Source: a virus
Lineage: Duplodnaviria > Heunggongvirae > Uroviricota > Caudoviricetes
IMG/VR virus record: IMGVR_UViG_2654587736_000008
Direction: 5' to 3' (one strand)
Length of the DNA: 42,353 nt
Part shown: one piece after another, positions 29,913-33,953 of the stretch
Numbering within the stretch: the first letter of the stretch is position 1
Layout: every line of letters starts with the position of its first letter
Translations under genes and position numbers: made by a program
Notes under the pieces: model-generated
What the model was told of the DNA's origin: nothing
The model's input: only the letters and a program-made list of their open reading frames with translations
The model's database searches: none

Positions 29913-30302
29913 TCAGGCGGCTGCACCCGCCGTTTTCTCGTACTTACTGATGGTGATCTCGACCTTCCCTTTCGGGATAACCGGTCCCCACTCCACCAGC
30001 ATTCTTTTCACCTGTCTGTCGTCTTCCCACACACCCGCGTGGGTCAACGCGTCAAACAGCGCCTTGTTATAGTTGTCCAGATCGCGGATCCGGTTATCCG
30101 GAGGAAACAACACGATCTCCACTGCAGCAGGTGCCGACGTTGGTTTTGGCAGACGACGTAACTGCTCAACTATTGCTGCGCACGCCGCGCTCTGAAATTT
30201 TCGCCCCGCCGCGCTTATCAGGCTCTTACCAGCAAATGCCCCTTTGTTGGGGTGTCGCCAGTACGTGTTCACGCTGGGCGGGAAAGGCAGGATCAGCTTC
30301 AT
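29913..30302 (-). CDS. rusA: Holliday junction resolvase RusA
   Basis: 129 aa; LPFPPSVNTYWRH...RDLDNYNKALFDALTHAGVWEDD; ATG overlaps upstream stop (ATGA). Confidence 0.85.
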   Translation of the reverse strand: MKLILPFPPSVNTYWRHPNKGAFAGKSLISAAGRKFQSAACAAIVEQLRRLPKPTSAPAAVEIVLFPPDNRIRDLDNYNKALFDALTHAGVWEDDRQVKRMLVEWGPVIPKGKVEITISKYEKTAGAAA

Positions 30303-30625
30303 ACTTTCAGGCCTCTCTCATGTAACCAGTGGGTTGCACGCAGCCTGGCGTTTTCCTCACCGGCAAGCAGTGAGCGGATAATCCCGACCGCCTCGCTGTC
30401 GTCGTCCTTCACCGCGGTATGAAGAGTGATACCCCGGGCCACGCCACGCTTTATCGTGATGACGCCTTTTTTCTCCAGTGCGCGAAGATGTTCCACCGCT
30501 GCATTCACTGAACGGTATCCCAGCATGGTTGCCACCTCCTGATTGGTTGGCGGGAAGCCACGTTCTTTCTGATAAGAAATCAGCATATCCAGCACCTGCT
30601 GCTGGCATTGAGTTAACGTCGTCAT
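30299..30625 (-). CDS. LexA-type N-terminal DNA-binding-domain protein (no peptidase domain)
   Basis: 108 aa; LTQCQQQVLDMLISYQKERGFPPTNQEVATMLGYRSVNAAVEHLRALEKKGVI resembles the LexA wHTH; ATGA overlap with the upstream gene. Confidence 0.55.
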   Translation of the reverse strand: MTTLTQCQQQVLDMLISYQKERGFPPTNQEVATMLGYRSVNAAVEHLRALEKKGVITIKRGVARGITLHTAVKDDDSEAVGIIRSLLAGEENARLRATHWLHERGLKV

Positions 30626-31275
30626 GCCGCCATCTCCCTGAGCAGTTTTTCCGCCTGCTGGCGAACCTGCGCCAGAAACGCCTCACCACATGCCTCAAGT
30701 TCATCGCGCCCGATGTAGCTGATTGCCGGTCCCTTCCAGGTCTTGTCAAAAACAGCAATAGCACCAGCGAAGAAAGCTCCTGTCGGCACCTGCTTCTCGT
30801 CTTTCGGGATAAACCAGACAGGCAGTTCAAAACCAATACGCCCGCGAATAAAAGCAATATGATCTGCATCTTCCGGCCACCACACTTCGCTGGTGGCCGC
30901 TTTGATCAGGAAAACATAGCGCCCGCCCTTATCACGCATGACACTGGCATGTTTCATGATGTAACGCATGCCGGTGATGTATTGCCCCTCATGCTGACTG
31001 GCGCGGCTGTATGGGGGATTACCAAAGGCAGCACCTTTAAGCTCCGCAAGACGTTCTGACCAGTCATGCGCCAGCGCGTTATCTTCCGCCGTGTAATACG
31101 CGGCACATTTGGCGTTATCACCGTCAGTAAACAGATCCAGAACAAACGGGCCAAACAGGGTGTTAATTCCCCAGAAAATGTTGTCCGGCGTGCGCCACTG
31201 ATCGCCCACTTCCTTCAGTTCATGGGCTGGTTTGTTCCGCAGTTCCACCAGCGCCTGGCAATATTTATTACTCAT
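30622..31275 (-). CDS. Phage Dam-type DNA N6-adenine methyltransferase (NPPY family)
   Basis: Start MSNKYCQALVELRN at ATG 31275; FGNPPYS motif. Confidence 0.75.
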   Translation of the reverse strand: MSNKYCQALVELRNKPAHELKEVGDQWRTPDNIFWGINTLFGPFVLDLFTDGDNAKCAAYYTAEDNALAHDWSERLAELKGAAFGNPPYSRASQHEGQYITGMRYIMKHASVMRDKGGRYVFLIKAATSEVWWPEDADHIAFIRGRIGFELPVWFIPKDEKQVPTGAFFAGAIAVFDKTWKGPAISYIGRDELEACGEAFLAQVRQQAEKLLREMAA

Positions 31276-31763
31276 TAAGCCCCCACGTAATTCCCTGACA
31301 GATACCACTCTTCACCCGATGCAGCGCGCTTGCTGCTTTTCCGTAAGCACCGCTCACGACGCGCCAGAAAATTGTTTCGTTCTGGCTGGGAGTGGCTTTC
31401 ACGGAATGCCGCCATCCACACGGTTGCAGCACGACGGTATAAGCCCCTGGACTCCAGTTCTTCAGCCTGGCGGGTCAGGCACAAAATCACCCGTGGATCG
31501 TTAGTGCCGACATAGAAATTGCGCACAGGTCTGGTTTCTCGAACTGGTTGTGGTTCCGGTTCCTGCGCTCTCTCAGTCAGGCGCGGGAAATGTCTGCGTG
31601 TATCTCCTTCACAACGGTGAGCCACACGCCCACTCTGACGTAACTTGCTTGCTGACTGCAGAACGCGCTGCCGTGAGTAACCTGCAAAAGCATCCGCAAT
31701 GTCTCCGGAAGTACACCCCGGATGGGCTTCAATGAATTTCTGAACTTCATTCAAAAGACTCAT
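31275..31763 (-). CDS. PerC/Pch-like transcriptional regulator domain protein
   Basis: C-terminal AEELESRGLYRRAATVWMAAFRE...RRERCLRK resembles the PerC family signature; N-terminal ~90 aa unassigned. Confidence 0.5.
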   Translation of the reverse strand: MSLLNEVQKFIEAHPGCTSGDIADAFAGYSRQRVLQSASKLRQSGRVAHRCEGDTRRHFPRLTERAQEPEPQPVRETRPVRNFYVGTNDPRVILCLTRQAEELESRGLYRRAATVWMAAFRESHSQPERNNFLARRERCLRKSSKRAASGEEWYLSGNYVGA

Positions 31764-31765
31764 GA

Positions 31766-32584
31766 TCACCCCCTGAATCCTGCCGGGATCTGGCTGTAGT
31801 CCACGTTGTCGTAACTGGCTTTGAAGTACGGGTCCTCGCGTCTGGCTGCAGATACCGCAGGAACTTCCCAGGATTCTTCGAAATGACGATCCGGACCAAA
31901 GAACGTAACAGCCTGTTTCACAAATTGTGTGCCGCTGTTACCCATCGCAGATACCCAGCCCGCGTAGCGTTTCACACCTTCCAGCATGGTTTCGGGGTTT
32001 ACCCCCTCATTCAAACGGGCTTTCCAGGCTTTGAAGGCTGCAGATTTTGAATTGCCACCAGCACGTTTGGGATATACCAGCCATGCCTGCTCAAACTCCG
32101 GAGAGTATTCCGGTCGGTTTGAACGAACTCGCACGGACTCATCAACTGATGCACCAACAGCTATTGGTTCATTGACTGGTTCTTTGACTGGTTCAAAAGA
32201 GTGACTGGTTCTGGGTGAATCTCCTGCACTACCCCCTGGTGCAACTCCTGCACTACCTGGTGAATTTGCTGCACCAGATAGTGAATTATTTGCACTACCC
32301 CCTAGTGAATCTCCTGCACCATCCAGATGAAGGAGATAGATATTACTTGAGTTACCTTTTTCACCTTTCCGGGTGACTTTTTTTACCAGCCCGGACTCAC
32401 AAAGGGCCGCAATATGATTCATCACAGAACGTTTGCTAATCTCGCACTGGTCAGCAATATGCTGGTAGCTGGGCCAGCACTCCCCCTGATCGCTGGCATT
32501 ATCAGCCAGCTTGATCAGAACCAGTTTTCGCAATGGATTACCCACTCGAATTTTCATCGCTTTAACCATCAGCTCCATACTCAT
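31766..32584 (-). CDS. Replication initiator (O-like, N-terminal wHTH) containing the origin iterons
   Basis: 272 aa; N-terminal wHTH; Gly/Ser/Ala-rich central linker encoded by the DNA repeats; conserved C-terminal domain. Confidence 0.65.
   Translation of the reverse strand: MSMELMVKAMKIRVGNPLRKLVLIKLADNASDQGECWPSYQHIADQCEISKRSVMNHIAALCESGLVKKVTRKGEKGNSSNIYLLHLDGAGDSLGGSANNSLSGAANSPGSAGVAPGGSAGDSPRTSHSFEPVKEPVNEPIAVGASVDESVRVRSNRPEYSPEFEQAWLVYPKRAGGNSKSAAFKAWKARLNEGVNPETMLEGVKRYAGWVSAMGNSGTQFVKQAVTFFGPDRHFEESWEVPAVSAARREDPYFKASYDNVDYSQIPAGFRG
32165..32325. repeat. Iteron-like direct repeats (candidate ori) inside the initiator gene
   Basis: At least three copies of TGACTGGTTC followed by about five ~21-bp repeats with core TCCTGCAC(T/C)A. 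Confidence 0.6.
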
Positions 32585-32805
32585 GCAGCACCTCCGAGAT
32601 GCTTCATGTTTTTTCCGGAGCGAAAGGCTATAAGCGGCATACTGACGCGGTAACTACGGCCCAGCGGTTCACAAATCACCTTCTGACATTCACGGTCAAC
32701 CAGGCTAACACGTAGAACATGCCCTGCAGGTGTGGTGTACCACTGACCCGGACGAGGACAACGGAAAGTCTGATTGGTAAACCGTTTGAAAATATTCCGG
32801 ATCAT
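32581..32805 (-). CDS. Hypothetical protein (74 aa)
   Basis: ATGA-coupled to both neighbours. Confidence 0.45.
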   Translation of the reverse strand: MIRNIFKRFTNQTFRCPRPGQWYTTPAGHVLRVSLVDRECQKVICEPLGRSYRVSMPLIAFRSGKNMKHLGGAA

Positions 32806-33953
32806 TTGCGCCCCCTTACCTCTGAAGGGTTCAGCGACAAATTTATGAGGCAGGCCAGTGCCGAAGCATCATTAATATAGTCATACAAGCTAACAGCCAG
32901 CGGAGATTCGGCTTTTGCCAACATAGGATAAAGCTGCTGCAGCCAGACCTGATGAATTGATGAAATGTAGGAATAGAGAACGCTGGCGTTATGTGCAACG
33001 TCGCTCAGTACAGAGGGATTTGAAAGCTGTTTCTCCATCTGGTTAAAGGCATTGATGTATGCCTCTTTGAACTGGGCAGCACGTTTACCCGTGAAACCCA
33101 TAGCAAGAAACGCAAAGCCGTCGCGGGTTATTTGATAGCAAGGTAGTTTGCGGCCTGTGCAATCGGTGTAATCACTCGCCGAAAAATTGCGGGAAGTGAA
33201 TGATGCAGAGCATTCAAGCGTGCGGATCTTTTTCAGTACATCGTCATGACGTTTGGAGAAGAAGTTGGCAACAGCCAGGGATGAAGTAACAGCCTGACCA
33301 TCAACGATGGCAATTTCAGGTTGAGTGAGGGTTGGGATCGTAGCCATGATGGCAGCCTCTTTGGTGATTTTTAATAACTCACCACCAAGGCTTTCCACGA
33401 CCTTATTGGTGGTGAGACGTACAGGGGTGGAAATACCGGTCACCAAAGAACCCGGCCCAACCGAAGTTGGCCCTGCACGCCCCACCATAATTTGGGCGTA
33501 ATGCTGCTCATTACACAAAAAAACCGCAAGAGCGCGGTTGTGCGCTTTGGTGAATTCCGAGTTTCCACGCCCGGCACCCGCTTTATAAGGTGCCTGAACA
33601 GTGTAACGTCCCGGAATGGCAGAATCAATGTGCTGGTGGTCCTTCACACTCAACAAAATCACGCCTGAATTTCCACAAAGGACTAAAGCACTCATGCGGG
33701 TAGTCTTTGCGAAGATAGATAACGCGCTGTGTTTCTGGCTCCCAACGAATAACATGGACATAAAGCCCTCTTCCGTCACGAAACCAGCGGTTAAGTTCCT
33801 GCACAACTCGCCCCCCACAGTCAGGTAAAGTTCTCTGTGGTTACTTACAGCCAAGTGATTTGGTAATCTGCATTCATGCCGTAACAACAGGTGTTCAGCG
33901 ACACTGACCACCAGCTGTTGCGACAAACGGTTATTTGCCGTTAAACTGTTCAT
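32802..33953 (-). CDS. Rha-family phage regulatory protein with a ~200-aa N-terminal extension (alternative start ATG 33348)
   Basis: pRha domain (IAIVDGQAVTSSLAVANFFSKRHDDVLKKIRTL...YQITRDGFAFLAMGFTGKRAAQFKEAYINAFNQMEKQL) in the C-terminal half; the ORF is open to ATG 33953, which overlaps the upstream stop (ATGA). Confidence 0.6.
   Translation of the reverse strand: MNSLTANNRLSQQLVVSVAEHLLLRHECRLPNHLAVSNHRELYLTVGGELCRNLTAGFVTEEGFMSMLFVGSQKHSALSIFAKTTRMSALVLCGNSGVILLSVKDHQHIDSAIPGRYTVQAPYKAGAGRGNSEFTKAHNRALAVFLCNEQHYAQIMVGRAGPTSVGPGSLVTGISTPVRLTTNKVVESLGGELLKITKEAAIMATIPTLTQPEIAIVDGQAVTSSLAVANFFSKRHDDVLKKIRTLECSASFTSRNFSASDYTDCTGRKLPCYQITRDGFAFLAMGFTGKRAAQFKEAYINAFNQMEKQLSNPSVLSDVAHNASVLYSYISSIHQVWLQQLYPMLAKAESPLAVSLYDYINDASALACLINLSLNPSEVRGRK

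What the first reader, a model, noticed from the sequence alone, without database searches (positions are those of the whole stretch)
31275..31763. PerC/Pch-like regulator domain encoded in the replication region
The C-terminal ~45 residues resemble the PerC signature. Prophage PerC homologues are known to act on host virulence loci in pathogenic E. coli, so this gene may be a lysogenic-conversion regulator; the N-terminal half is unassigned.
Basis: partly seen in the sequence, partly recalled or inferred. Interest (0 to 1): 0.4.

Follow-up and report, generated by a model that had tools for sequence, protein, structure and literature searches.

The report
Phage yfdN gene, PerC-type regulator
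This is the phage copy of the E. coli K-12 gene yfdN, which databases already label a PerC-family regulator, and its position among the phage's early replication genes suggests it serves the phage rather than switching on host virulence genes.

Summary
The ORF at 31275-31763 (minus strand, 162 aa) matches Pfam PerC (PF06069) at 36.1 bits, above the 22.6 cut-off, over residues 98-149.

It is not new. The protein is 98% identical to E. coli K-12 YfdN (cryptic prophage CPS-53). The same gene is SfV orf40 and mEp460 gp44. RefSeq labels it "PerC family transcriptional regulator", and it occurs in 2668 of 5426 complete E. coli genomes.

The "unassigned" N-terminal half is a winged-helix domain of the MarR/BlaI type. 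Only the three-helix core of PerC is present (model positions 5-56 of 90), whereas PchA and PchE match positions 1-89.

The lysogenic-conversion idea is weakly supported:
- The gene lies in the early rightward operon, 2 nt after the replication initiator and overlapping the Dam methylase start by 1 nt.
- No promoter-like site lies just upstream.
- This position holds in relatives down to about 30% identity.
- K-12, which has no LEE (locus of enterocyte effacement), carries the gene.
- Published tests found that the distant PerC homologues PchD and PchE barely activate ler.

The most likely role, by inference, is an early lytic DNA-binding regulator whose PerC/ANR-type (AraC negative regulator) domain acts on H-NS-type nucleoprotein complexes. 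Nobody has tested its function.

The parts
31275..31763 (-). CDS of the two-domain PerC-family protein (162 aa plus stop). It is the orthologue of E. coli K-12 yfdN, SfV orf40 and mEp460 gp44.
   Evidence: ORF. Pfam PerC 36.1 bits against a 22.6 cut-off. 98% identical to K-12 YfdN. Annotated yfdN / PerC family in RefSeq genomes.
31584..31763 (-). Residues 1-60: winged-helix (wHTH) domain with three helices and a beta-hairpin wing, MarR/BlaI/MecI-like.
   Evidence: AF2 model has pLDDT 94-98 over this stretch. Foldseek PDB matches to SlyA, BlaI, MecI, ArsR/SmtB and YgaV have rmsd 1.6-2.8 A over 58-67 aligned columns. Family profile against the PDB: BlaI E = 3.6e-4, MarR 7e-4. 7-8 of 30 relatives hit Pfam MarR_2 or Penicillinase_R.
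31497..31583 (-). Residues 61-89: Pro/Glu/Arg-rich linker, predicted disordered, variable in length and sequence among relatives.
   Evidence: pLDDT about 59. Gap-rich, unconserved columns in alignment A1.
31332..31496 (-). Residues 90-144: three-helix PerC/ANR-type core. The Pfam PerC match covers residues 98-149, i.e. 31317-31472.
   Evidence: AF2 helices at 90-105, 109-122 and 126-144 with pLDDT 96-98. NCBIfam ANR_neg_reg 23.6 bits, below its cut-off of 32. 25 of 33 related cores hit ANR at E <= 0.01.
31278..31331 (-). Residues 145-162: low-confidence tail carrying the conserved motif W-x-L-[AS]-G-x-[YF]-x-G. The motif is absent from PchA and PchE.
   Evidence: G157 is at least 90% conserved and 'LAG' is the consensus in A1. 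pLDDT 47-59. PchA and PchE lack it.
31769..31774 (-). AGGGGG Shine-Dalgarno-like sequence 5 nt upstream of the ATG. It lies within the last codons of the replication gene.
   Evidence: Read directly from the sequence.
31766..32584 (-). Upstream gene: replication initiator (HTH_36 / DnaD_N-like N-terminus; PHROG 270 'replication initiation protein'). Its stop lies 2 nt before the PerC-like ATG.
   Evidence: The same neighbour is present in L002, L003, L008, L064 and in 49 of 49 viral loci with upstream sequence.
32165..32319 (.). Iteron-like direct repeats inside the replication gene; probable origin.
   Evidence: Repeat families D1, D2 and D6.
30622..31275 (-). Downstream gene: phage Dam-type N6-adenine methyltransferase (PF05869). 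Its ATG shares one base with the PerC-like TAA (TAATG).
30299..30625 (-). LexA DNA-binding-domain-only protein (108 aa), the next gene in the same tightly packed operon.
   Evidence: Pfam LexA_DNA_bind 2.9e-19. Conserved in this position.
29913..30302 (-). RusA Holliday-junction resolvase, the following gene of the operon.
   Evidence: Pfam RusA 1.3e-14.

Best explanation
The ORF is a genuine, widely conserved early gene of a lambdoid (SfV / mEp460 / CPS-53-type) temperate phage: the phage form of E. coli yfdN.

**Anatomy (shown).** It encodes a two-domain protein:
- an N-terminal winged-helix DNA-binding domain (residues 1-60);
- a disordered linker (61-89);
- a C-terminal three-helix core homologous to the N-terminal half of PerC/Pch and related to the ANR anti-activators (90-144);
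- a short conserved tail.

**Expression (inferred from gene layout).** It is read as part of the early rightward operon, coupled to the replication initiator upstream and the Dam methylase downstream. The protein is therefore made on infection or prophage induction, not in the stable lysogen.

**Mechanism (inferred from what is published for Pch and ANR proteins).** The winged helix places the protein on DNA. The PerC/ANR-type core then loosens or remodels silencing nucleoprotein complexes (H-NS/StpA/Hha) or other regulators. The protein would thus act as a transcriptional modulator or anti-silencer for the phage's own early, replication and nin-type genes. Any effect on host genes would be a by-product of induction.
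For: **Identity and family**
- Pfam PerC above threshold; PHROG 1324.
- 98% identical to K-12 YfdN.
- Annotated 'yfdN: PerC family transcriptional regulator' in RefSeq, and present in 2668 of 5426 complete E. coli genomes.
- 40-41% identity to the PchA and PchE cores.

**Domains**
- AF2 model with mean pLDDT 86.8: a winged helix plus a three-helix bundle joined by a disordered linker.
- The winged helix is supported by Foldseek and by a profile search of PDB sequences.
- The C-terminal domain modelled alone (pLDDT 84.5) resembles only generic TPR/MIT-like helical protein-binding units. It matches no DNA-binding fold (all E > 0.3).
- The two-domain architecture is kept down to about 25% identity.

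**Operon position**
- Gene order is cro-like, then Rha/Ash, Rep, PerC-like, Dam, LexA-DBD, RusA, KilA-N, HNH and Q, all on one strand.
- Spacings are 2 nt and -1 nt, and no promoter-like site lies between 31763 and about 32600.
- The same slot holds in relatives of 31-41% identity and in 49 of 49 viral contigs of one lineage.

**Mechanistic precedent**
- Pch activates LEE1 only by relieving silencing by H-NS/StpA/Hha/YdgT (PMC4764244).
- The ANR protein Aar binds H-NS directly (PMC5570504).
- 25 of 33 related cores match the ANR model.
Against: - No experiment addresses YfdN. The literature offers only an overexpression glycogen phenotype and co-regulation with prophage genes.
- The window protein lacks the C-terminal 35 or so positions of the PerC model that PchA and PchE have, so Pch-like activity cannot be assumed.
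- Fukui et al. could not co-precipitate H-NS with PchA (PMC4764244, Discussion), so even for Pch the direct partner is unclear.
- DNA binding by the winged helix is a fold-based inference, and no target site was identified.
- The promoter scan is a crude consensus search, so a weak internal promoter active in lysogens is not excluded.
- One relative sits after RecT, and one lies in a PICI-like element after AlpA. The position after the replication genes is therefore frequent but not universal.
Confidence: 0.45

Rival explanations
1. Lysogenic-conversion regulator. The prophage-encoded protein acts in the lysogen on host virulence loci such as LEE1/ler, as PerC and PchA, PchB and PchC do.
For: - Real PerC-family homology with the conserved signature.
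- PchABC and PerC do activate LEE1 (PMC4332760, PMC4764244).
- Uhlich et al. thought it prudent to delete yfdN in their K-12 ler-lacZ reporter strain (PMC5931665).
- Nearly identical copies occur in Stx2-converting phages.
Against: - The gene lies inside the early lytic operon, tightly coupled to its neighbours and with no promoter of its own detected. pchA, in contrast, is a stand-alone gene on the opposite strand in the late region.
- It is present in LEE-free K-12 and in about half of all complete E. coli genomes. Relatives are also found in Salmonella, Citrobacter and Hafnia.
- Only positions 5-56 of the 90-position PerC model are shared.
- The more distant PerC homologues PchD and PchE are nearly inactive on ler, and a PICI PerC-like protein represses LEE1 (PMC5931665, PMC4332760, PMC11773190).
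Confidence: 0.1
2. Replication accessory factor. The protein works with the initiator at the phage origin, for example as an adaptor or origin-remodelling factor, rather than as a transcription regulator.
For: - It is always the gene immediately after the replication gene or genes: the HTH_36/Phg_2220_C initiator in the window, L002, L003, L008, L064 and 49 of 49 viral loci, and a lambda-P-like protein in L066.
- Iteron-like repeats lie about 400 bp upstream.
- PchE in Sakai Sp7 follows the primase and SSB genes.
- No helicase-loader gene is evident beside this initiator.
Against: - It persists after a lambda-P-type loader in L066, so it does not simply replace P.
- Rep and the PerC-like gene recombine independently: Rep stays 94-98% identical while the PerC-like gene varies from 70 to 100%. 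That argues against tight co-evolution.
- One relative follows RecT and another follows AlpA, with no adjacent Rep.
- No similarity to any known replication protein was found.
Confidence: 0.15
3. Controller of the adjacent DNA adenine methyltransferase. The protein would be a C-protein-like or PapI-like partner that times or targets methylation.
For: - A methyltransferase follows directly in most relatives, and it belongs to three different Pfam families: PF05869, PF02086 and PF05063. A role-based pairing could explain this.
- The profile weakly matches the PapI/FaeA-type winged helix: 2htj at E = 0.005, and FaeA in 2 of 30 members.
Against: - 6 of 49 viral loci have no methyltransferase, and the LexA-DBD gene then abuts the PerC-like gene.
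- PICI-like and RecT-linked relatives lack an adjacent methyltransferase.
- Near-identical PerC-like genes pair with different methyltransferases. This looks like cassette swapping at a recombination hot spot rather than a functional pair.
- The PapI/FaeA matches are no better than those to any other winged helix.
Confidence: 0.08

Closest known systems
YfdN of E. coli K-12 (b2357, cryptic prophage CPS-53/KpLE1); also SfV orf40 and mEp460 gp44
   Same: 159 of 162 residues are identical. The neighbours are the same: yfdO (a replication-protein remnant) upstream and yfdM (a methyltransferase remnant) downstream. RefSeq gives the same annotation, 'PerC family transcriptional regulator'.
   Different: Essentially nothing at the protein level. 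K-12 annotates the GTG start (164 aa). In the window the flanking replication and methylase genes are intact, whereas in CPS-53 they are remnants.
PchA, PchB and PchC (PerC1 group) of EHEC O157:H7, and PerC of the EPEC pEAF plasmid
   Same: The helical core is homologous: 41% identity over 44 aa with PchA, with the shared motif L-E-x-K-G-L-Y-R-R-A-A ... R-x-x-C-L-R-K. All belong to Pfam PF06069.
   Different: - PchA is a 104-aa single-domain protein that matches the whole PerC model (positions 1-89, 149 bits).
- The window protein matches only positions 5-56 (36 bits). It adds an N-terminal winged helix, a linker and a different tail.
- pchA is a stand-alone gene on the opposite strand in the late region of prophage Sp4, not part of the early operon.
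- PchABC activate LEE1 by relieving H-NS silencing (PMC4764244). No such activity is known for YfdN.
PchE (PerC3) of O157 Sakai Sp7 / OI-51, and the PerC-like proteins of PICIs such as EcCIMP1_025
   Same: 40% identity over 52 aa. PchE also sits beside replication genes of a mobile element, after the primase and SSB genes. These proteins show that PerC-family members need not activate LEE: PchE is nearly inactive on ler and represses csgD and adhesion, and EcCIMP1_025 represses LEE1 (PMC5931665, PMC6265319, PMC11773190).
   Different: PchE is 90 aa, has a single domain and matches the full PerC model. It has no winged helix.
ANR (AraC negative regulator) family: Aar, Rnr (NCBIfam NF033650)
   Same: A small helical core with detectable sequence similarity: 23.6-24.5 bits for the window protein, and 25 of 33 related PerC-type cores hit at E <= 0.01, best 6.3e-12. 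ANRs act through protein-protein contacts with AraC-type activators and H-NS (PMC5570504, PMC4983702), a plausible model for how the core works.
   Different: The score is below the family cut-off of 32 bits. ANRs are single-domain proteins encoded next to AraC-type regulators, not phage early proteins with a winged helix.
MarR / BlaI-MecI / ArsR-type winged-helix DNA-binding domains
   Same: The N-terminal 60 residues have this fold.
   Different: There is no MarR-type dimerisation helices or BlaI-type C-terminal dimerisation/cleavage domain. Sequence similarity is marginal (E about 1e-3 to 1e-4 with the family profile).

Membership tests
PerC family (Pfam PF06069) | Profile match above the curated gathering score | tested here: met
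   36.1 bits against a cut-off of 22.6, E = 7.7e-9. All 30 two-domain relatives also match.
PerC family (Pfam PF06069) | Conserved core signature (L-E-x-[KR]-G-[LF]-Y-R-R-A-A ... R-x-x-C) | tested here: met
   In the alignment with the PchA and PchE cores and short PerC-like proteins, L, R-A and R..C are invariant, and the A before the L and the second A of R-A-A are at least 90% conserved.
PerC family (Pfam PF06069) | Match over the whole ~90-residue PerC model, as in PerC/Pch | tested here: not met
   Only model positions 5-56 of 90 are matched. PchA and PchE match positions 1-89 at about 150 bits.
PerC family (Pfam PF06069) | Small single-domain protein (about 90-105 aa) | tested here: not met
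   162 aa, with an additional N-terminal winged helix and a linker.
PerC/Pch functional group (LEE1/ler activators) | Activates the LEE1 promoter by relieving H-NS-type silencing | not testable with these tools
   No experiment on YfdN was found. In the literature only PerC and PchABC are active, and PchD and PchE are minimal or inactive (PMC5931665, PMC4332760).
PerC/Pch functional group (LEE1/ler activators) | Encoded as an independently expressed accessory gene (per operon on pEAF; stand-alone pch genes in prophages) | tested here: not met
   The window gene is coupled within the early operon with no promoter-like site just upstream. pchA is stand-alone on the opposite strand.
YfdN orthologous group (CPS-53 / SfV-type lambdoid phages) | Near-identity to K-12 YfdN and the same flanking genes | tested here: met
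   98% identity. Rep-type gene upstream and methyltransferase downstream in K-12, SfV and mEp460.
ANR family (NCBIfam NF033650) | Profile match above the curated cut-off | tested here: not met
   23.6 bits (24.5 for the isolated domain) against a cut-off of 32. This indicates relatedness, not membership.
Winged-helix (MarR / BlaI-like) DNA-binding domains | Three-helix plus beta-hairpin wing fold | tested here: met
   AF2 pLDDT 94-98. Foldseek rmsd 1.6-2.8 A over 58-67 aligned columns to SlyA, BlaI, MecI and SmtB. Profile E = 3.6e-4 to BlaI.
Winged-helix (MarR / BlaI-like) DNA-binding domains | Sequence-specific DNA binding | not testable with these tools
   No operator candidate was identified. 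EMSA or ChIP would be needed.

The most novel reading that the evidence does not exclude
YfdN-type proteins would be a class of phage early proteins that tether a PerC/ANR-type anti-silencing module to DNA through their own winged helix. They would use it to lift H-NS/StpA/Hha silencing of the phage's own replication and nin region at induction. PerC, Pch and ANR 'virulence regulators' would then be stripped-down, domesticated derivatives of a phage and PICI housekeeping function.
Probability: 0.2. Interest if true: 0.5.

Novelty: already known. Interest (0 to 1): 0.2.

Why it matters
As a finding it adds little. The gene is already named yfdN and labelled PerC family in RefSeq, and the EHEC literature already calls it the K-12 PerC homologue.

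The practical point is a caution. A PerC-family label on a prophage gene should not be read as "virulence regulator". This subtype is an early-operon gene found in about half of E. coli genomes, pathogenic or not.

- the winged-helix N-terminus;
- the partial PerC core;
- the fixed slot after the replication genes.

Together they give a testable idea of what PerC-type domains originally do for mobile elements.

Tried and rejected
**Searches that found nothing useful**
- Direct PDB sequence search with the single protein: no hit at E <= 10.
- Foldseek of the isolated PerC core against the PDB: only generic TPR/MIT-like helical matches, all E > 0.3, and no Hha/Cnu-like or DNA-binding fold.
- Foldseek of the full model against viral predicted structures (BFVD): only generic winged-helix hits.
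- PADLOC defence-system models: nothing meaningful for the PerC-like protein.
- tblastn of the core against plasmids did not pick up an identifiable pEAF perC at E <= 0.01. It found only distant PerC-family genes, so EPEC PerC itself was not compared.

- The search for related loci with family alignments failed because no conserved 7-10-residue stretch exists.
- Single-protein scans for four divergent lineages found nothing in the viral collection.
- Porter et al. 2005 (PMC543544), which may have tested YfdN-like proteins, is not held.

**Checks that were uninformative or negative**
- GC content as a sign of a moron was uninformative: 54% for the gene against 51% for the window, with pchA at 49% and pchE at 54%.
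- A second PerC-type ORF in the window was looked for with a family HMM, and none was found.

**Ideas rejected**
- That the gene replaces lambda P. It co-occurs with a P-like gene in L066.
- An obligate pairing with a methyltransferase. 6 of 49 viral loci lack one.
Full report
**1. The observation**

The coordinates 31275-31763 are exactly a minus-strand ORF of 162 codons.
- The ATG at 31763 is preceded by AGGGGG with a 5-nt spacer (read). An in-frame GTG two codons upstream (31769) overlaps the stop of the preceding gene and has no spacer. The ATG form is also what PGAP and the mEp460 annotation use.
- Pfam PerC (PF06069) matches residues 98-149 at 36.1 bits, against a gathering score of 22.6, with E = 7.7e-9.
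- PHROG 1324 'transcriptional activator' matches the whole protein at 1.7e-78.
- I fetched two bona fide family members from E. coli O157:H7 Sakai: pchA (ECs_1091) and pchE (ECs_1588). BLASTP gives 41% identity over 44 aa to PchA (E = 1e-7) and 40% over 52 aa to PchE (E = 5e-10).
- A 30-sequence profile of the window protein's relatives aligns to PchA with hhalign probability 97.4%.
- The joint alignment shows the shared signature L-E-x-[KR]-G-[LF]-Y-R-R-A-A ... R-x-x-C.

**2. What the gene is**

It is a known gene.
- Nearly identical DNA occurs in 2668 of 5426 complete E. coli genomes, where RefSeq annotates it 'yfdN: PerC family transcriptional regulator'.
- The protein is 159/162 identical to YfdN (b2357) of the cryptic prophage CPS-53 of K-12 MG1655.
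- The same gene is orf40 of phage SfV and gp44 of mEp460. It also sits in several Stx2-converting phages.
- The EHEC literature already calls yfdN 'the K12 unique PerC homologue' (PMC5931665).
- No functional study of YfdN turned up. The literature holds an overexpression glycogen phenotype, a listing next to other prophage genes in an RNA-seq table from CFT073, and a computational interactome placement.

**3. Anatomy**

- A profile built from 30 two-domain relatives (25-48% identical to the window protein) hits BlaI, MecI and MarR-family structures at E = 4e-4 to 2e-3 over positions 6-67.
- 7-8 of the 30 members individually hit Pfam MarR_2 or Penicillinase_R.
- The AlphaFold2 model (mean pLDDT 86.8) has three helices and a beta-hairpin at residues 3-60 with pLDDT 94-98.
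- Foldseek superposes this part on SlyA, BlaI, MecI, SmtB and YgaV with rmsd 1.6-2.8 A over 58-67 aligned columns.

*Linker.* Residues 61-89 are Pro/Glu/Arg-rich, of low confidence and variable among relatives.

*PerC core.*
- Residues 90-144 form three helices with pLDDT 96-98. These are the PerC-type core.
- Modelled alone (pLDDT 84.5), the core has no significant structural neighbour. The nearest are TPR/MIT-like helical units, all with E > 0.3. It looks like a protein-binding module rather than a DNA-binding one.
- The core also scores 23.6-24.5 bits on the NCBIfam ANR (AraC negative regulator) model, below its cut-off of 32.
- 25 of 33 related cores hit that model at E <= 0.01, best 6.3e-12. 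PerC and ANR cores therefore appear to belong to one superfamily. The authors of PMC11773190 suspected the same for a PICI protein.

*What is missing, and what is added.*
- The window protein covers only positions 5-56 of the 90-position PerC model, whereas PchA and PchE match positions 1-89 at about 150 bits. It has the N-terminal half of PerC, not the whole protein.
- In place of the PerC C-terminus it carries a short tail with a conserved W-x-L-[AS]-G-x-[YF]-x-G motif. I cannot explain this motif.

**4. Genomic setting**

All on the minus strand, the order is: cro-like HTH, a small ORF, Rha/Ash, a 74-aa ORF, replication initiator, PerC-like, Dam methylase, LexA-DBD-only protein, RusA, KilA-N, HNH/DUF968, Q antiterminator, then lysis genes.
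- The initiator's stop lies 2 nt before the PerC-like ATG.
- The PerC-like TAA shares a base with the Dam ATG (TAATG).
- A consensus scan finds no promoter-like site between the gene and the cro region. The nearest minus-strand candidate is at 35404-35375.
- Iteron-like repeats lie inside the initiator gene at 32165-32319.

This is the layout of a gene expressed from the early rightward promoter on infection or induction and silent under repressor control. By contrast, pchA in Sakai Sp4 is a stand-alone gene on the opposite strand, between the Q/tRNA region and the lysis genes, the typical place for a moron.

**5. Is the position conserved?**

Yes, and well beyond close relatives.

| Relative (identity to window) | Upstream gene | Downstream genes |
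|---|---|---|
| 31-34%, four separate lineages | HTH_36/Phg_2220_C initiator, 1-4 nt overlap | adenine methyltransferase, LexA-DBD protein; RusA where the contig reaches that far |
| 41% | lambda-P-like protein | methyltransferase, LexA-DBD, RusA |
| one PICI-like relative | AlpA nearby (small opposite-strand ORF between) | small genes |
| one relative | RecT | acyltransferase |

- In 52 viral contigs of one lineage, the initiator is upstream in all 49 that extend far enough.
- The methyltransferase slot holds three different Pfam families: PF05869, PF02086 and PF05063.
- Of the 49 viral contigs that extend downstream, 34 carry PF05869, 9 carry PF02086 and 6 carry none. PF05063 was seen in L002, not among these viral loci.
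- Near-identical PerC-like genes pair with different methyltransferases.
- Rep identity stays at 94-98% while the PerC-like gene ranges from 70 to 100%, so the two recombine independently.
- PchE in Sakai Sp7 likewise follows the primase and SSB genes of a PICI-like element.

The constant feature is 'first gene after the replication genes of a mobile element'.

**6. How it most likely works**

*Shown:* family membership of the core, the winged-helix fold, the operon position and its conservation.

*Inferred:* expression only in lytic development; DNA binding by the winged helix; action of the core on nucleoid or regulator proteins.

*Precedents:*
- The ANR protein Aar binds H-NS and AraC-type activators directly (PMC5570504, PMC4983702).

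My best reading, at confidence about 0.45 for the mechanism as a whole, is an early phage regulator that is tethered to DNA by its own winged helix and loosens silencing complexes on phage DNA.

*Caveats:*
- The Pch C-terminal half is missing.
- Fukui et al. could not co-precipitate H-NS with PchA.
- No target site is known.

**7. Rivals**

- *Lysogenic-conversion regulator of host virulence genes (about 0.1).* The homology is real. Against it stand the operon position, the presence in K-12 and in half of all E. coli genomes, the partial domain, and the published inactivity of the more distant homologues PchD and PchE on ler. A PICI PerC-like protein even represses LEE1 (PMC5931665, PMC4332760, PMC11773190).
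- *Replication accessory factor (about 0.15).* The conserved slot supports it. It is weakened by co-occurrence with a P-like gene, by independent recombination from Rep, and by the exceptions.
- *Methyltransferase controller (about 0.08).* Three non-identical methyltransferase families in the same slot are suggestive, but 6 of 49 loci have none.

**8. Comparison with what is known, and verdict**

The protein is a member of the PerC family by the Pfam criterion and by signature residues, and it is an orthologue of YfdN. It is not a Pch/PerC-type LEE activator by architecture, model coverage or gene setting. It is related to ANR but below that family's threshold. The membership table lists each feature.

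The finding is therefore already known at the level at which it was stated.

Interest is 0.2. The most novel reading not excluded is that this two-domain form is the ancestral, phage-serving anti-silencer from which PerC, Pch and ANR virulence regulators derive (probability about 0.2, interest about 0.5 if true).

Noticed in passing
window 32165-32319: Iteron-like direct repeats inside the replication initiator gene: three copies of TGACTGGTTCT-type 11-mers, and three GTGAAT...CTGCAC units. They probably mark the phage origin, as ori does within lambda O.
   Followed up: partly
window 30622-31275 (-); compare L064:5444-6268, L002:1912-2580, L066:3358-4224: The slot right after the PerC-like gene holds an adenine methyltransferase from three different Pfam families in different phages (PF05869, PF02086, PF05063). 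It holds none in 6 of 49 viral loci, where the LexA-DBD gene directly abuts. This looks like cassette swapping at a fixed junction.
   Followed up: partly
window 30299-30625 (-): A 108-aa protein made only of a LexA DNA-binding domain, with no S24 peptidase domain. It sits between the methyltransferase and RusA in most of the relatives examined. It could be a non-cleavable LexA mimic acting at SOS boxes.
   Followed up: no
window 31278-31331 (-), residues 145-162: A conserved C-terminal tail motif, W-x-L-[AS]-G-x-[YF]-x-G, in two-domain PerC-like proteins. It is predicted disordered and is absent from PchA and PchE. It may be a docking motif for an unknown partner.
   Followed up: no
window 32802-33953 (-): A 383-aa ORF combining Ash (PF10554) and Rha (PF09669) domains, upstream of the replication gene in the same operon.
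   Followed up: no
PerC-type cores in alignment A3 (window 31278-31508, PchA L010:33366-33680, PchE L009:7773-8045 and others): 25 of 33 PerC-type cores match the NCBIfam ANR (AraC negative regulator) model at E <= 0.01, best 6.3e-12. PerC/Pch and ANR proteins therefore appear to form one superfamily.
   Followed up: partly
and one search hit lists (e.g. P0123, P0124, P0125, P0131, P0136); PHROGs 23071 and 2608: Many database entries and two PHROG families correspond to only the N-terminal or only the C-terminal half of this protein at high identity. The cause could be frequent frameshifts or truncations, or recombination within the linker.
   Followed up: no
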